A stretch of 60,443 nt of DNA from Elusimicrobiota bacterium (GCA_028714015.1 JAQTNG010000001.1:1-60443); one strand, 5' to 3'; shown: positions 35,091 to 42,302, numbered from the stretch's first letter. The notes: a model not told the origin generated them from the letters alone. Made by a program: numbers and translations.

Positions 35091-36257
35091 TTACGCCGCG
35101 GGGTAGTCGAGGTACAGGACTTCGGGCACGCGGTAGATGCGGCCGCCGCCGAAGCGCAGGAACGCGACGCCGTTCCAGTTGAACCCGTCGGCCGACATCG
35201 CCGGATTCAGGGTGAAGTCGATGGGCACGTCCATCTTCACCGTCAGGCCGTCGCCGGAGCCGACGCCGAGCCGCGCGGAGTTGTAGAGGACGTAGCGGTT
35301 CGTGCCGTCGGCGTTCCAGAAGCCGGCGTTGCGCTCGGCCATGCCGTAGCGCGAGGGCAGGATGCGGAAGCCCTCGTTGCCGGTCAGCTCCTTGAACACG
35401 GTCAGCATGTACTTGATCATCGTGCCGATCGGGAACGAGGACGACGTCGCCGCGCCCAGCCCCATGAAGTCGTCGTAGGGGATCAGGAACGTGTCGGGGG
35501 TCGCCGTGTAGTTGGCGTTCGCGGAGTACGCGGCCAGCAGCCCGGCCACGAAGGCCTGGAAGGCCGCCGGGTCCGCGCTCAGGGACGACAGCGGCGCCGT
35601 GATCAGGCTGGTGTTCACGGTGACGTCCGCGCTCGAGTAGAGCCCGGGGTAGTCGGTCAGGTCGGTCTCGAGGCCCAGGAAGGCCACGTCCTGCAGGCCC
35701 AGGCTGGACAGCTTGCGCAGGGCCTTCATGCGGGCGGTGATGAGGTCGAAGTTGTTCGCCGCCAGCGCCTGGTTGACCTCGTCGATCGCGTAGCCGTAGC
35801 CGCCCTTCCACGTCTTGATCGCGGCCCGGAACGGGTACAGCGCGACGTCGACGCGGGGGATGTTGGTCGGACCCGCGTTGTCCGCGGGGCCGGTGCCCGC
35901 GGCGAACGTGCCGCCGATGATGCCGGTGGCGTTCGTGATGATCTCGTTCTGCCAGCCGCCGGTGCCCTTGTCCACGGACATGAAGTCCGGGATCGACACC
36001 TCGTAGAACTTCTGGGAGAGGATGGACGAGCGGATGAAGCTCGTCGACTCCATGAAGTACTGCACGGCGAGGCTCGAGCTGTCGACCGAGCCGTCGCTGT
36101 TGAGGCGCACGGGCATCCCGGCCTGCAGCTGCATGCCCGGGCGCCACTTGAAGCGGCGCGCGGGCATCTTCGGACCGGCGGTCCGGCGCCCGAACTCGGA
36201 GGAGTTCTGGTACTCGTGCAGATCGCGGACGATCCGCGTGACGATGTCGTCTTGCAT
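35091..36257 (-). CDS. major capsid protein (DUF2184-like, HK97 fold expected), 388 aa
   Basis: Strong SD AAGGAGA. Size and position after the scaffold and decoration genes. Confidence 0.8.
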   Translation of the reverse strand: MQDDIVTRIVRDLHEYQNSSEFGRRTAGPKMPARRFKWRPGMQLQAGMPVRLNSDGSVDSSSLAVQYFMESTSFIRSSILSQKFYEVSIPDFMSVDKGTGGWQNEIITNATGIIGGTFAAGTGPADNAGPTNIPRVDVALYPFRAAIKTWKGGYGYAIDEVNQALAANNFDLITARMKALRKLSSLGLQDVAFLGLETDLTDYPGLYSSADVTVNTSLITAPLSSLSADPAAFQAFVAGLLAAYSANANYTATPDTFLIPYDDFMGLGAATSSSFPIGTMIKYMLTVFKELTGNEGFRILPSRYGMAERNAGFWNADGTNRYVLYNSARLGVGSGDGLTVKMDVPIDFTLNPAMSADGFNWNGVAFLRFGGGRIYRVPEVLYLDYPAA

Positions 36258-36796: not shown

Positions 36797-38068
36797 TTAC
36801 GGCTTCAGAGCGAAGTCTTCGTTGCCGCGGCGGATGCGGTCCTCGACGGCGACGAAGCCCTGGTCTTCCGGCTGCCCGCCGAGCGGGGCGAAGCGGGCGT
36901 GCGCGGCCTCGCGCAGCTCGCGCGACGGCGCGCCCTTGAGCTTGGTCAGCTCCTCGGTCAGGGAGTTCAGCCGCTCCTTCAGCGAGCTGATCTCCTTGCC
37001 CGCCTCGAGCGCCTTGTCGGGGTTGTCGTCGACGCCGTCGATCTTCTCGGAGCCCGCGCCCGCGAGCTTGCCTGACTTCTCGGCCCCGGCGCCGGCGAGC
37101 TGGACGTCGTTCTTGCGGGCCTTGGCGGCGTTCTCGCGCGCGACCTTCTCCTTCTCCTCCTTCTCCTTGTCCTCGGCGTTCTTCTTGACCGAGTTGCGGT
37201 AGGAGTTCTTGAGGTCGCCCGCCTTGTAGCGCTTGCCCTCGAACTCGACCTCGTCGTCGTCGGCGCAGGTCATGATGTCGGACGGCGCGCTGGCCGCGTT
37301 GTGCTTGGCGACCAGGTCGGCGATGCCGACCGGGGAGCCGTCCACGTCCATCTTCATGGCGGCGCCTTCGGCCGCGTTGAGGCGCAGCACTTCGGCTTCC
37401 TTCTTGCGGGTGATCAGGTCGGACAGTTTCCAGGCCATCTTGTACCCTCCGTGTTCCGTCGAGTTGGCCCGAATCCGGGCTTTTTCGTAGCGCGGGTTTT
37501 TGACCAGCGCTAAGTGGTTCATCACGCCGTCCAAAATCCGGTCCGTATAGTCGATCGTGTGGTACTTGCCGCCCTTGCCGTCGGTCTCGGTCTCGGTGTA
37601 GGCGCACGAGACGGACCAGTCGCCGGACTCGGCGTGCTCGATGGACGACTTCGTCCACAGCACGAAGCCCGCGTGCCACCAGCCGTCGCCGTCCTTCCAG
37701 ACGTCGTAGACGACGCCGTCGCCCTGGCCGTCGCCGAGGATCTCCGGCCAGACCTCGGCGTGGTCCCAGTCGATGACGGGCTTGCCGATGAGAGTCTTGG
37801 CCAGACGGGCGATCGCGTCGGCCTCGAGGAGGACCCACTCGTCCGGGTTGCCGTTCTGGCCGCGGTACTTGACGATGCCCGGCTCGATGAAGTTGGCGGC
37901 GAAGCGCTTGGCCCACGGCGCGGCGTTGAGGTTCTCGCGCACCTGGTCGTCGCTGACCGGGCTCGGCATCCCGGGCATGCCGGGGAGCAGGCCGGAGTTG
38001 TCCCGCAGCAGGGAAGGCGGGAGCCCCGGATCCTGCGGCCCGATGATGTGTCGAGAGAGTTCAAACAT
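36797..38068 (-). CDS. prohead scaffold/protease-type protein (DUF2213-like), 423 aa
   Basis: Globular N-domain followed by a Lys/Glu-rich helical C-terminal half (scaffold-like). The start codon has no clear SD. Confidence 0.7.
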   Translation of the reverse strand: MFELSRHIIGPQDPGLPPSLLRDNSGLLPGMPGMPSPVSDDQVRENLNAAPWAKRFAANFIEPGIVKYRGQNGNPDEWVLLEADAIARLAKTLIGKPVIDWDHAEVWPEILGDGQGDGVVYDVWKDGDGWWHAGFVLWTKSSIEHAESGDWSVSCAYTETETDGKGGKYHTIDYTDRILDGVMNHLALVKNPRYEKARIRANSTEHGGYKMAWKLSDLITRKKEAEVLRLNAAEGAAMKMDVDGSPVGIADLVAKHNAASAPSDIMTCADDDEVEFEGKRYKAGDLKNSYRNSVKKNAEDKEKEEKEKVARENAAKARKNDVQLAGAGAEKSGKLAGAGSEKIDGVDDNPDKALEAGKEISSLKERLNSLTEELTKLKGAPSRELREAAHARFAPLGGQPEDQGFVAVEDRIRRGNEDFALKP

Positions 38069-38346: not shown

Positions 38347-38675
38347 GGCCGCCCCAGGCGCAGGACGAGGTCGAGATGGAACGCGCGCGGTTTCGTGTAG
38401 AGCCAGAGTCGCCAGCCGATGCACGGGCGTCGAGGATTATCCTGGAACATCCACTCGAGCCGCACGACCGTCAGCGCGACGGGTCGCCCCCAGGTAAACG
38501 TCGTGGGCTGTCCGTGGTTCGCGTCGACCAGCGAGCCCGTGTGGATGCTGACGTCGGACCGAAGCAGCATCAGAATCTGGCCCCAGCTCCCGAGGCGCTC
38601 GACATCCCGGACGTAGCGGCGGCGTCTTGCCGCTTCGCGCTGGAGTAGAGGCTGGAACCAAGTGGCCGTGGTCAC
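38343..38675 (-). CDS. hypothetical Trp-rich protein, 110 aa
   Basis: ATG 38675 overlaps the TGA of the Mu-F-like gene (ATGA). Confidence 0.6.
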   Translation of the reverse strand: MTTATWFQPLLQREAARRRRYVRDVERLGSWGQILMLLRSDVSIHTGSLVDANHGQPTTFTWGRPVALTVVRLEWMFQDNPRRPCIGWRLWLYTKPRAFHLDLVLRLGRP

Positions 38676-39724
38676 GACGGCTCCTTGACGTACACGTCGC
38701 CGATCTTAAACTTCGCGTTGTAGGCGGTGTCGACCAGCGGACGCGCGACGCAGCGGCAGTTGTAGTCCTCGTGCGGGTTGCAGTTTCGGCCGCAGCTCAT
38801 GTGCTTGGCCGGCGCGCCCTCGGCCCAGCTGAAGATCCGACCCTGCAGCTGCTGGTGGCCGAGCCGCACGTCGCAGTCCTTGGACGTGTCCCACACGTAG
38901 CGCGGCACGCCGACGCTGACGAACTGCTCCTTGTGGTACTGCGCCATGAACAGGCCCGTCTCCTGGCGCGCGAGGAAACGGGCTTTGCTCTGCGCGACCT
39001 CGTAGCGCGCGGACAGGCGCGCGGCAAGCGTGGACGCGCGGGCGCCGGAGCGCACGTTCGCCTCGACCTGGCGGCGCAGGCGCACGACGTCGTCGGCGAC
39101 CCAGTTCTTGACCCACAGCTGCATGTTCTGGGTGTAGGCCGCGCTCAGGCGCGCGCGGGCGGCGCGATCCGGTTTGACGAACGGGATGCCGACGCGGCGC
39201 ACGACGTCTTGAAAGCCCTCAGTGACGCGCGTGGTGGCCTGCTCGGCCCGCAGCTCCAGAGGGTTGAGCCGCGCGACGGCCTGATCCACTTGGCCCTGGA
39301 CCCCGAGCAGGAACTGCTCCATGCGCTGGTGGGCGCGCTCACACGCCGAGGCGTGGGCGGCCCCGGCGGCCAGGACCTCGGTGGGGACCTCCTCCGGCTT
39401 CAGACGGTAGACGCGCTCCCTGGAGTCGAAGGTGGCCCCGAGCGCGCGCAGCGCGCGGCCCAGGGCTGCGTTGGACTCCCCGGAGAAGATCCCGCGGCCC
39501 TGCGCGTCCACGCTGTACTGGAGCCGCCCGGAGCGCAGGGCCTTGACCAGTGACGTGCGGTCGGACGCGGCCGAGTTCTCGTACTCCAGCCGCCGTCCGA
39601 CCTCCTCGCGCCAAATCTGCGCGAGGGGTCGGAACAGCAGCTCGGTGATGAAGCGGTGCAGCCCCGCCTCGACCGGCGCGTAGTCGGTTTGGAGGAGGCG
39701 CTGCCCCGGGAGGATCTGGCTCAC
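38672..39724 (-). CDS. head morphogenesis protein (SPP1 gp7 / Mu F-like), 350 aa
   Basis: ARQETGLFMAQYHKEQFVSVGVPRYVWDTSKDCDVRLGHQQLQGRIFSW matches the Mu-F core by eye. GTG start coupled to the upstream stop. Confidence 0.8.
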   Translation of the reverse strand: MSQILPGQRLLQTDYAPVEAGLHRFITELLFRPLAQIWREEVGRRLEYENSAASDRTSLVKALRSGRLQYSVDAQGRGIFSGESNAALGRALRALGATFDSRERVYRLKPEEVPTEVLAAGAAHASACERAHQRMEQFLLGVQGQVDQAVARLNPLELRAEQATTRVTEGFQDVVRRVGIPFVKPDRAARARLSAAYTQNMQLWVKNWVADDVVRLRRQVEANVRSGARASTLAARLSARYEVAQSKARFLARQETGLFMAQYHKEQFVSVGVPRYVWDTSKDCDVRLGHQQLQGRIFSWAEGAPAKHMSCGRNCNPHEDYNCRCVARPLVDTAYNAKFKIGDVYVKEPS

Positions 39725-40136: not shown

Positions 40137-42302
40137 TCAGAGCGTCTCGACGACCTGCTCCGGCTTCGGCGGCCCGGCGATGACGTCGCCGCACGCCTCG
40201 CAGCGCCAGCCGTCCGTGGTCTCCTGCGTGGCGATGGTCTCCGTGCTGGAGCCGCCCGCGTTGCAGAGCAGGACCGGGAACGCGCCGTTCATCCGGTCCG
40301 GGTACATGTGCCCGTGGTCGCCGGCGTCGTTGCGCCGGTGGACGAGCTGGACCTCGTGTGCAGCGTGGGCGCCGCCGGGCTCTCGGTCCGCGGCGGTGAC
40401 GGGCTGCCCGCAGGTCAGGCACCACCACTCCTTCTCCCCGGCCGCGTTCTTCTTCGGGCCGATGCCGTGCTCCGTGCCGTGCGGGTCGATCGCCGCGCAC
40501 TTGGGGCACTGGACGTCGTCGCACGTGTCGGGATCGTGCGGGCCGGCCGCGTTGGACTTCGGGTGCGCCTTGAAGTACTCGACGTCGCCCTCGTGCTTGG
40601 CCGCGGCCTCGTGGCTCTCGAAGGTGCCGAGGTTCTTGCCCTCGTGGGACAGGAGGCGGTACTCGTGTTCGCCGAGCTTCTCGATCGTGTTGCGGCGCTC
40701 GCCGGCGTTCTTCCGGTCCATTCCGTAAACGGTTTGATCGCTGCCCACCAGGCCTTCGCGGCAGGCCGCGCCCATGGCATTCTGAGCGATCGTCGAAGAG
40801 AAACCCGCGGCGACGAGCTTGTTTTTCGCTCGATCAAACGGCAGGTCCTTGAACATGTGGAGGTTGCTCTTGATGAAATCGTAGGCCTCCTGCGGCGAGG
40901 TCCCGTTCTTCTTCTCAAGCTCGCTGACCTCGTGCGCGATCCCCTCGACGTGGCGCTCGATCTCGGCGACGTCGCCGCCGGCGTCGTTCTTTTTCCCGGT
41001 CGCGCAGCCCGGCTTGTGCCCCGTCCAGCCGCCCTTGCCGTCCGCGGTCATGGCGTTGCCGCACTCGTTGCAGGTGGCGCTGCCGTTCTTTCGTTCGGGA
41101 TGACGGTCGAGGTAGTCCAGGCACTTCGGGCAGTTTACCTGTCCCGAGCTCTTGGCCAACAGGGCCCCGTCGTTCGTCGTCTTGCCGCACGCCGGCTGCG
41201 TGCCGAGGGCATGGTGCCATACGGTGTCGGCGTTCTCGCGGCCCTCGGGGGGGTGGACCGCGCCGTGCGAGTCGGTGAACGGCGAGTTCACGAACTCGGC
41301 GTCCTCGACGTCGTCGCCGGGCACGAGCTGCGACAGGTCGAGCTTGCCGCCGTCCACCACGAAGACGCGGTGCTTCGAGCCGTCCTCGCCGTAGAAGTCG
41401 TATCCGTCGCCCGTCAGCGCGTCCTTGATGTCGAGCCCCAGCTCCTCCTGCAGCTCGCGGGCGACCGCGGACTCGGCGTCCTCGCCGTTCTCGAGGTGGC
41501 CGCCGGGCAAGAGCGAGCGGCCGTCCTTCTGGCGCGCCGCGATGATGGTGCCGTCGTTCTGGCGGATGAGCGCGCGGGCGGTGAGTGGCTCGGCGTTGTC
41601 CCTGGTGGACAATCCGCCGGCGCCGGCCACGGTGCCGGCCTTCGGGTACACGTGGCCGCAGTGCTCGCAGACGTCCTTTCCGCCCACGATCTTGACGTTG
41701 TGGGGCTCCTGGACGCCCTTGCGGTCGCAGATCGGGCAGTCGGGGTTGGCAGCGTTCATGCGCTCGACACCGGGCTCGATCCCCAGGTCCGCCCCCAGCA
41801 GTCGCAGGTCCTCGAGGGCCTGGGCGACCTCGGCCTCGCGGGCCGGGCGCTCGTGCGCGGGGGCGTTGGGAAGGTCCGCGCGGCGCGCGGCCAGGGCGTT
41901 CTCCAGGACGTGGTACTGCGCCACGGCCTCGGCGTTGTTGCGGCGCTCGATGTTGCGCGGGAAGCCCAGCGCGACGACGTCGCCCATGGACTTCGGCACG
42001 TCGCGCCACGCCCAGGAGGCCACGCTCTCGGCCGGGCGCAGCAGGTCCATTTCCATCTTCTCGACGTCGACCGGGTACACGGCGACGACCTCGTTGCCGA
42101 CGCGGGCCTGGAAGCCCTCCTTGATCGCGTCCTCGGGAGCGCTGAAGCCGAAGAACTCCTCGAGCGCGCGCTTGGCGGCGGCCCGGGCGTCTTCGCCGCT
42201 CTTGAGCTGCGTCGCGGGCAGGACCTCCTCGTCGGCCGAGTTCCTCAGCTCGAGGTGCTGGCCCTGACGGTTCACCAGCAGCGGCATCGCTTTCGTGATC
42301 AT
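40137..42302 (-). CDS. Nudix hydrolase domain protein with several zinc ribbons, 721 aa
   Basis: Perfect Nudix box GHLENGEDAESAVARELQEELGL (aa 268-290, nt 41433-41501). CxxC pairs include CPIC/CEHC, CPKC/CNEC, CPKC/CLTC and CEAC. A degenerate Nudix-like region lies at the N-terminus. Confidence 0.8.
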   Translation of the reverse strand: MITKAMPLLVNRQGQHLELRNSADEEVLPATQLKSGEDARAAAKRALEEFFGFSAPEDAIKEGFQARVGNEVVAVYPVDVEKMEMDLLRPAESVASWAWRDVPKSMGDVVALGFPRNIERRNNAEAVAQYHVLENALAARRADLPNAPAHERPAREAEVAQALEDLRLLGADLGIEPGVERMNAANPDCPICDRKGVQEPHNVKIVGGKDVCEHCGHVYPKAGTVAGAGGLSTRDNAEPLTARALIRQNDGTIIAARQKDGRSLLPGGHLENGEDAESAVARELQEELGLDIKDALTGDGYDFYGEDGSKHRVFVVDGGKLDLSQLVPGDDVEDAEFVNSPFTDSHGAVHPPEGRENADTVWHHALGTQPACGKTTNDGALLAKSSGQVNCPKCLDYLDRHPERKNGSATCNECGNAMTADGKGGWTGHKPGCATGKKNDAGGDVAEIERHVEGIAHEVSELEKKNGTSPQEAYDFIKSNLHMFKDLPFDRAKNKLVAAGFSSTIAQNAMGAACREGLVGSDQTVYGMDRKNAGERRNTIEKLGEHEYRLLSHEGKNLGTFESHEAAAKHEGDVEYFKAHPKSNAAGPHDPDTCDDVQCPKCAAIDPHGTEHGIGPKKNAAGEKEWWCLTCGQPVTAADREPGGAHAAHEVQLVHRRNDAGDHGHMYPDRMNGAFPVLLCNAGGSSTETIATQETTDGWRCEACGDVIAGPPKPEQVVETL

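What the first reader, a model, noticed from the sequence alone, without database searches (positions are those of the whole stretch)
40137..42302. 721-aa Nudix hydrolase fused to multiple zinc ribbons, encoded inside the head-morphogenesis module
Seen in sequence: between the portal and the Mu-F-like head protein lies a large ORF with a textbook Nudix box, GHLENGEDAESAVARELQEELGL (GX5EX7REUXEEXGU; nt 41433-41501). Upstream is a degenerate Nudix-like N-terminal region (..SGEDARAAAKRALEEFFGF). There are at least four CxxC...CxxC zinc-ribbon pairs and His-rich stretches. Established knowledge: Nudix enzymes cleave nucleoside-diphosphate-X substrates such as NAD, ADP-ribose, RNA caps and signalling nucleotides. 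Proteins encoded between portal and MuF are frequently packaged or ejected. Inference: this may be a virion-delivered Nudix effector acting on arrival, for example by decapping NAD-RNA, removing ADP-ribose or NAD-derived defence signals, or sanitising nucleotides. I do not recognise this architecture.
Basis: partly seen in the sequence, partly recalled or inferred. Interest (0 to 1): 0.7.

Follow-up and report, generated by a model that had tools for sequence, protein, structure and literature searches.

The report
Bead-on-a-string Nudix protein in phage head module
An uncultured contractile-tailed phage encodes, among its head-assembly genes, a rare 721-residue protein made of a dead and a live copy of a nucleotide-cleaving (Nudix) domain plus six small zinc-binding modules. 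The modules are separated by a short motif also repeated in the phage's head protease/scaffold protein, so it is probably packed into the head, cut into pieces and injected with the DNA.

Summary
ORF 40137-42302 (-) encodes 721 aa with a canonical Nudix box at nt 41433-41501 (Pfam NUDIX E=4e-16). It lies between the portal and MuF genes, and this order is conserved in relatives.

New here:
1. The N-terminal 120 aa are an internal duplicate of the Nudix domain with a degraded box (hhalign 96.7%, E=5e-10). The order pseudo-Nudix, Zn site, Nudix matches NudC/NUDT12, but the protein fails NudC membership tests.
2. Twelve modules are separated by [KR]-x-N-[A/S/G/D] junctions: 13 regex matches against 0.8 in shuffles. 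The motif recurs in the neighbouring DUF2213 protease-scaffold protein and across 81 distant DUF2213 tails. It occurs once at a conserved N-terminal site of the capsid protein and is almost absent elsewhere in the window.
3. Modules of this protein also occur fused to a DUF2213 protease and in a Nudix-less zinc-ribbon protein at the same position in another phage.

Best reading: a head-packaged polyprotein cut by the prohead protease and injected with the DNA. Packaging, cleavage and substrate are inferred, not shown. Head-packaged phage Nudix enzymes were already predicted (Iyer et al. 2022), so this is a new variant of a known kind. The family is tiny (about 16 clusters).

The parts
41937..42302 (-). 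aa 1-122: N-terminal pseudo-Nudix domain. Its box is degraded (PATQLKSGE...KRALEEFFG), with two of the three box glutamates lost. It ends at junction ERRN122.
   Evidence: hhalign against the protein's own Nudix domain: probability 96.7%, E=5e-10. Same secondary-structure order in the AF2 model. It is the most conserved part of the family. Only 10 clusters were found in 1.84e9 representatives.
41754..41936 (-). aa 123-183: helical hairpin linker, ending at junction ERMN183.
   Evidence: AF2 helices 123-142 and 149-173, pLDDT about 80. Conserved in the family; N183 is nearly invariant.
41595..41753 (-). aa 184-236: C4 zinc ribbon cassette (C189, C192, C210, C213), ending at junction TRDN236. 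A cassette at this position occurs in only some homologues.
   Evidence: Sequence. The region is an insert relative to P0003-P0008. NudC chains align from about aa 210 through the Nudix box.
41232..41594 (-). aa 237-357: catalytic Nudix domain with Nudix box aa 268-290 (nt 41433-41501), ending at junction GREN357.
   Evidence: Pfam PF00293 E=4e-16. pLDDT 82-92. The box residues G268, E274, R282, E283, E286, E287 and G289 are invariant or at least 90% conserved in alignment A1, whose exception is the Nudix-less P0015.
40986..41231 (-). aa 358-439: two small Cys/His modules (358-406 C3+His; 407-439 CxxC..H..C), each ending in a junction (ERKN406, GKKN439).
   Evidence: The cassette GSATCNECG..MTADGKGGW.GH.PGC recurs at other positions in P0003, P0004 and P0009, again flanked by the motif.
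40905..40985 (-). aa 440-466: conserved helix DAGGDVAEIERHVEGIAHEVSELEKKN, bounded by junctions on both sides.
   Evidence: Conserved in the family. Shared at 61% identity over 23 aa (E=9e-6) with the Nudix-less 802-aa zinc-ribbon protein of locus L010.
40707..40904 (-). aa 467-532: variable four-helix module, ending at DRKN532.
   Evidence: AF2 helices 470-515, pLDDT 82-89. Present in only some homologues.
40551..40706 (-). aa 533-584: small alpha/beta module ERRNTIEKLGEHEYRLLSHEGKNLGTFESHEAAAKHEGDVEYFKAH, ending at PKSN584.
   Evidence: AF2 pLDDT 80-87. The same module forms the N-terminus of the DUF2213 protease-scaffold P0140, joined by ...EHTN|ATQ.
40329..40550 (-). aa 585-658: two more Cys/His modules (585-619 C3+His; 620-658 CxxC...HxxH), ending at PKKN619 and HRRN658.
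40137..40328 (-). aa 659-721 plus stop codon: conserved C-terminal domain DAGDHGHMYPDRMNGAFPVLLCN...WRCEACG (HxH..C..CxxC). It is present in most family members.
   Evidence: AF2 strands 677-709, pLDDT 69-84.
36797..38068 (-). Neighbouring DUF2213 (Pa193_gp24-like) protease-scaffold protein, 423 aa. The family has invariant H103, S154 and H185. It carries the junction motif at N24, N231, N257, N297 and N313, plus a relaxed match at N320 (RKND-V).
   Evidence: Pfam PF09979, 27.9 bits against a cutoff of 22. PHROGs 'head maturation protease'. Invariant residues. Foldseek BFVD matches to proteins named prohead serine protease, HK97-family and COG3740. Motif statistics.
35091..36257 (-). Major capsid protein (PF09950) with a single conserved motif, VRLN53|SDGSVDS, near its N-terminus.
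   Evidence: The site aligns about 10 residues downstream of residue 66, where the visible capsid protein of E217 and Pa193 begins (PMC10329688, PMC11456595).
43147..45054 (-). Portal protein (PF06381), upstream flank of the module.
38672..39724 (-). MuF-like minor head protein (PF04233 / TIGR01641), downstream flank.

Best explanation
The ORF encodes a modular 'bead-on-a-string' head protein of an uncultured myovirus that is distantly Pbunavirus-like.

Shown:
- It consists of an inactivated duplicate of a Nudix domain, a helical hairpin, a catalytically intact Nudix domain, six small Cys/His metal-binding modules, two small helical or alpha/beta modules, and a conserved C-terminal Zn domain.
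- The modules are separated by flexible linkers that each carry a [K/R]-x-N-[A/S/G/D] junction.
- The same motif is repeated in the C-terminal scaffold tail of the adjacent DUF2213 protein and of DUF2213 proteins in general.
- The motif occurs once at a conserved N-terminal position of the capsid protein.

Inferred:
- The motif is the recognition site of the DUF2213 prohead serine protease (candidate triad His103/Ser154/His185).
- The polyprotein is co-assembled into the procapsid and cut at or next to the junction Asn into roughly twelve pieces of 3-13 kDa.
- The pieces stay in the head and enter the cell with the DNA.
- The roughly 120-aa Nudix piece then hydrolyses an NDP-X compound early in infection. 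The most likely substrates are of the NAD/ADP-ribose type, that is NAD(H), ADP-ribose-derived immune signals or NAD-capped RNA.
- The zinc modules and the pseudo-Nudix domain act as nucleic-acid or ligand binders, or as targeting elements.
For: Domain content:
- Pfam NUDIX E=4e-16.
- Internal duplication: hhalign 96.7%, E=5e-10.
- AF2 model with confident modules and low-confidence linkers. All 11 junction Asn fall in 10-residue blocks of mean pLDDT 65 or below, and 10 of 11 in blocks of 58 or below.

Junction motif:
- 13 matches in the 721-aa protein against 0.81+/-0.89 in 5000 shuffles (maximum 5).
- 5 in the DUF2213 protein against 0.5 in shuffles.
- 6 in the other 14,240 aa of the window. 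Poisson P(>=12) is about 1e-15 for the 721-aa protein and P(>=5) about 1e-6 for the DUF2213 protein.
- The same restriction to these two proteins, plus one capsid-protein site, holds in relatives L001, L002 and L004.
- In the scaffold tails of 81 DUF2213 proteins down to about 22% identity, R at -2 is 22% against a 4.5% background, and A or S at +1 is 49% against 17%.
- Codons at the sites differ, so the motif is at peptide level.
- Cassettes absent from some homologues are bounded by the motif.

Protease:
- H103, S154 and H185 are invariant.
- PHROGs names the matching families 'head maturation protease'.
- Foldseek BFVD matches proteins named prohead serine protease, HK97 family and COG3740 (E=1e-7 to 1e-11).

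Link to the head interior:
- Conserved synteny.
- The HIEKL...RLLSHEGKNLGTF module is fused to the DUF2213 protease P0140 through the same motif.
- An 802-aa Nudix-less zinc-ribbon protein lies at the same position in L010, with 7 motifs and the shared EIERHVEGI helix.
- PHROG 15528 'portal protein' covers the Nudix region, and a BFVD protein named as a Nudix hydrolase matches the DUF2213 model.
- Published precedent: PMC9503650 section 3.5.2, and prohead-protease processing of ejection proteins in T4, phiKZ and SPN3US (PMC5694885).

Substrate lead: the top Foldseek PDB hits are NUDT12 and NudC, over about 350 columns.
Against: - There is no direct evidence of packaging, cleavage or ejection.
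- The cleavage specificity of DUF2213 proteases has not been determined experimentally. I found no paper on it.
- Foldseek against solved structures found no protease match for the DUF2213 model. hhalign against HK97 gp4 found nothing.
- PB1, the cultured reference, has only two motif-like sites in its scaffold.
- The visible Pa193/E217 capsid protein starts at residue 66, which is Asn in PB1. The exact scissile bond (before or after Asn), and even cleavage itself, are therefore open.
- The NudC/NUDT12 resemblance has an rmsd of 17-20 A and E-values only about tenfold better than single-domain Nudix hits. The Zn site between the two Nudix folds is not conserved in the family.
- Two members lack the catalytic domain, so the enzyme may be an accessory.
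Confidence: 0.5

Rival explanations
1. A cytoplasmic late-expressed Nudix enzyme that is never packaged. It would act like T4 NudE.1, encoded near structural genes but working in the infected cell on NAD, ADP-ribose, Ap3A or NAD-RNA. In this reading the junction motif is only a favoured linker sequence.
For: T4 nudE sits next to the genes e, ipII and ipIII, and its product is a soluble enzyme active on FAD, Ap3A, ADP-ribose, NAD and NAD-RNA (bioRxiv 10.1101/2024.04.04.588121). Gene position alone does not prove packaging.
Against: A mere linker preference does not explain several findings. The motif is confined to this protein, the protease-scaffold and one capsid-protein site. It pervades scaffold tails of distant DUF2213 proteins. 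A module of this protein is fused to a DUF2213 protease. Similarity to T4 NudE is limited to 30 residues around the box.
Confidence: 0.2
2. A mainly structural or morphogenetic head-core protein. It would act as an internal scaffold, a DNA-condensing protein or a portal-associated protein. The zinc modules would bind DNA or assembly partners, and the Nudix fold would serve as a binding or targeting domain. The catalytic Nudix copy would be a dispensable add-on.
For: The constant parts of the family are the inactive N-terminal Nudix copy and the C-terminal Zn domain. P0015 and P0139 lack the catalytic domain. L010 has a Nudix-less zinc-ribbon protein at the same position. The motif is shared with the scaffold protein, which is itself a morphogenetic factor.
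Against: Where the catalytic domain is present, all box residues are kept. That argues for selection on catalysis. This rival is also compatible with the best explanation, because a packaged protein can be both structural and an effector.
Confidence: 0.2
3. A true member of the NudC/NUDT12 family, acquired by the phage and extended at its C-terminus. These enzymes are NAD(H) pyrophosphatases and NAD-RNA decapping enzymes.
For: The top Foldseek PDB hits are NUDT12 (6o3p, 6scx) and NudC (1vk6, 8zb4, 5iw5), covering about 350 columns. phmmer matches NudC chains from the second CxxC through the box at E of about 2e-3. The domain order is the same: Nudix-like N-terminal domain, Zn site, Nudix.
Against: - NCBIfam NAD(+) diphosphatase scores 21.6 bits against a cutoff of 158.
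- There is no Pfam hit to the NudC N-terminal or zinc-ribbon families, even with the E-value limit raised to 1 on the N-terminal 185 aa.
- The SQPWPFPxS signature is absent (sequence).
- The Zn cassette is missing in most homologues.
- The N-terminal domain is 26% identical to the protein's own catalytic domain. That points to an independent, more recent duplication.
Confidence: 0.07

Closest known systems
Head-packaged phage Nudix proteins, as predicted by Iyer, Burroughs, Anantharaman and Aravind 2022 (Viruses 14:1977, PMC9503650)
   Same: A Nudix domain encoded among virion-morphogenesis genes of a myovirus. Relatives exist in which Nudix is associated with portal (PHROG 15528) or with a DUF2213 protease (BFVD A0A6J7W8E3). 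The proposed role is early action on NAD/ADP-ribose-type molecules.
   Different: That work describes mostly T4-NudE-like or NadM-like domains, either stand-alone or fused to MuF, portal or peptidase. Here the catalytic domain is not specifically NudE-like. It is duplicated with one dead copy. It is embedded in a chain of zinc modules punctuated by a putative protease motif.
NudC / NUDT12 (NAD(H) pyrophosphatase, NAD-RNA decapping enzymes)
   Same: The domain order is the same: a Nudix-like N-terminal domain without a functional box, a four-Cys zinc site, then a catalytic Nudix domain. These are the best Foldseek PDB matches.
   Different: No family-level sequence match, no SQPWPFPxS motif, and the zinc site is not conserved among homologues. 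A 60-residue helical hairpin is inserted. The duplication appears independent.
Prohead-protease-processed internal and ejection proteins: T4 IPI-III and Alt (gp21, L/I-x-E), and phiKZ, 201phi2-1 and SPN3US inner-head proteins (S/A-x-E) (PMC5694885)
   Same: [quoted passage not shown] The cargo is encoded in or near the head module. Multiple cleavages give small fragments.
   Different: In those systems cleavage mostly removes N-terminal targeting propeptides. Here the motif separates about twelve folded modules along the whole chain. The motif is Asn-centred rather than Glu-centred. The protease is of the DUF2213 type in a 60-kb phage. Nothing is experimentally verified.
Polyvalent proteins of phages and conjugative elements (Iyer et al. 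2017, PMC5512222)
   Same: A large multidomain, fast-shuffling protein linked to virion genes, proposed to be injected and possibly proteolytically released into separate domains.
   Different: Polyvalent proteins combine several different enzymatic effector domains and often carry their own peptidase. This protein has one active enzyme domain, and the rest are tiny metal-binding or helical beads. Processing is proposed to be done in trans by the head protease.
T4 NudE.1
   Same: A phage Nudix hydrolase encoded near late or internal-protein genes. It shows what a phage Nudix can do: hydrolyse NAD, ADP-ribose, Ap3A, FAD and NAD-RNA in vitro.
   Different: It is a single 151-aa domain, not known to be packaged. 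Similarity is restricted to the Nudix box.

Membership tests
Nudix hydrolase superfamily (PF00293) | Nudix box GX5EX7REUXEEXGU with the catalytic Glu residues | tested here: met
   G268-x5-E274-x7-R282-E283-L284-x-E286-E287-x-G289-L290. The residues are invariant or at least 90% conserved in alignment A1.
Nudix hydrolase superfamily (PF00293) | Profile match above Pfam's gathering score, and the alpha/beta/alpha fold | tested here: met
   59.7 bits against a cutoff of 21.1. AF2 pLDDT 82-92 over aa 241-350. Foldseek matches to MutT, BdRppH, Ndx1 and NUDT15 with rmsd 3-4 A.
NudC / NUDT12 NAD(H) pyrophosphatases | N-terminal Nudix-like domain preceding the catalytic domain | tested here: met
   aa 1-121 is homologous to the catalytic domain (hhalign 96.7%). 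Foldseek aligns about 350 columns to NudC and NUDT12.
NudC / NUDT12 NAD(H) pyrophosphatases | Conserved four-Cys zinc motif between the two domains | tested here: inconclusive
   The window protein has C189/C192/C210/C213. A cassette at this position is absent from P0003-P0008, P0012 and P0013.
NudC / NUDT12 NAD(H) pyrophosphatases | Family-level sequence match (NCBIfam NF001299; Pfam PF09296/PF09297) and the SQPWPFPxS signature downstream of the box | tested here: not met
   NF001299 scores 21.6 bits against a cutoff of 158. No PF09296 or PF09297 hit, even with the E-value limit raised to 1 on the N-terminal 185 aa. No SQPWPFPxS in the sequence; the conserved downstream motif is NSPFTDSHG, at a different distance.
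T4 NudE-like phage Nudix clade | Similarity beyond the Nudix box to T4 NudE | tested here: not met
   hhalign of the family's Nudix profile against T4 NudE aligns 30 columns around the box only, probability 80%.
Prohead-protease-processed internal head (ejection) proteins | Carries the same cleavage motif as the scaffold and capsid proteins of its own phage | tested here: met
   [quoted passage not shown] The same holds in relatives. That the motif is a cleavage site is itself an inference.
Prohead-protease-processed internal head (ejection) proteins | Physically present in proheads and virions and cleaved there | not testable with these tools
   This needs virion proteomics. The phage is known only from metagenome contigs.
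Polyvalent proteins (Iyer et al. 2017) | Several distinct effector or enzymatic domains in one phage or plasmid polypeptide with variable architectures | tested here: inconclusive
   The architecture is highly variable and cassette-like among 16 homologues. Only one recognisable enzymatic domain is present; the other modules have no Pfam match above threshold.
DUF2213 / Pa193_gp24 family (the neighbouring gene, proposed protease) | Pfam PF09979 match, and conserved catalytic-type residues with a prohead-protease fold | tested here: inconclusive
   The Pfam match is met: 27.9 bits against a cutoff of 22. H103, S154 and H185 are invariant in 81 sequences. BFVD Foldseek matches proteins named prohead serine, HK97-family or COG3740 protease. 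There is no match to solved protease structures or to HK97 gp4 by hhalign. In Pa193 the homologue is described only as a putative scaffold (PMC11456595).

The most novel reading that the evidence does not exclude
DUF2213 head proteases recognise an Asn-centred site, [K/R]-x-N-[A/S]. This specificity is not described for any prohead protease in the papers I searched or to my knowledge. This phage lineage would exploit it to dice a shufflable bead-on-a-string polyprotein inside the capsid into about a dozen mini-proteins: one live Nudix enzyme, one dead Nudix copy that could act as a binder or sponge for NAD- or ADP-ribose-derived immune signals, and several zinc-ribbon peptides small enough to travel through the tail with the DNA. 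That would be a 'cluster-munition' way of delivering effectors, with new beads added by cassette insertion at the junctions.
Probability: 0.3. Interest if true: 0.75.

Novelty: new variant of a known kind. Interest (0 to 1): 0.55.

Why it matters
If the reading is right, three things follow.

1. It yields a sequence rule, [K/R]-x-N-[A/S], for finding head-packaged cargo in the many phages that use a DUF2213 protease-scaffold. These include relatives of therapeutic Pseudomonas Pbunaviruses, whose scaffold processing is explicitly unresolved (PMC11456595).
2. It gives an example of an enzyme delivered as one piece of a processed polyprotein in a mid-sized phage. So far this is documented mainly for T4 and jumbo phages.
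3. It provides a concrete candidate for an injected enzyme acting on NAD/ADP-ribose-type molecules at the moment of infection, together with a dead paralogue that may bind the same ligands.

All three can be tested with synthetic genes, even though the phage is uncultured.

Tried and rejected
- **Cultured relatives.** tblastn of the protein and megablast of the 12-kb head module against 50,697 phage records gave no match. The DUF2213 protein hit only Bdellovibrio phage phi1422, weakly.
- **Specific Nudix subfamily.** NCBIfam gave only far-sub-threshold hits to MutT, RppH, NudC and NudE. PDB phmmer gave generic MutT-like hits. T4 NudE matched at box level only. No subfamily could be assigned.
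- **DUF2213 as a protease by solved structures.** Foldseek PDB gave nothing below E=0.07, only MCE and Rubisco noise. hhalign against a single HK97 gp4 sequence gave nothing. Only BFVD predicted structures and PHROG names support the protease assignment.
- **Experimental cleavage specificity.** A literature search for DUF2213 found 7 papers, judged from their titles and abstracts to be annotation mentions only. A search for PB1-like capsid N-terminal sequencing found nothing relevant. The Pa193 supplementary MS tables are not held. The E217 and Pa193 papers say only that capsid residues 1-65 are invisible and 'could be cleaved'.
- **PB1 as a test of the motif.** Its scaffold has only two motif-like sites, so the motif's multiplicity is not universal in the family.
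- **A DNA-level repeat or recombination linker as the source of the motif.** Rejected, because codons and flanking residues differ among the sites.
- **Self-cleaving Asn (viral Asn-lyase type).** Considered unlikely. Those sites depend on a folded catalytic environment, whereas these lie in low-confidence linkers and recur in unrelated sequence contexts. Not tested.
- **Terminal repeats of the window.** None found, so genome completeness is undetermined.
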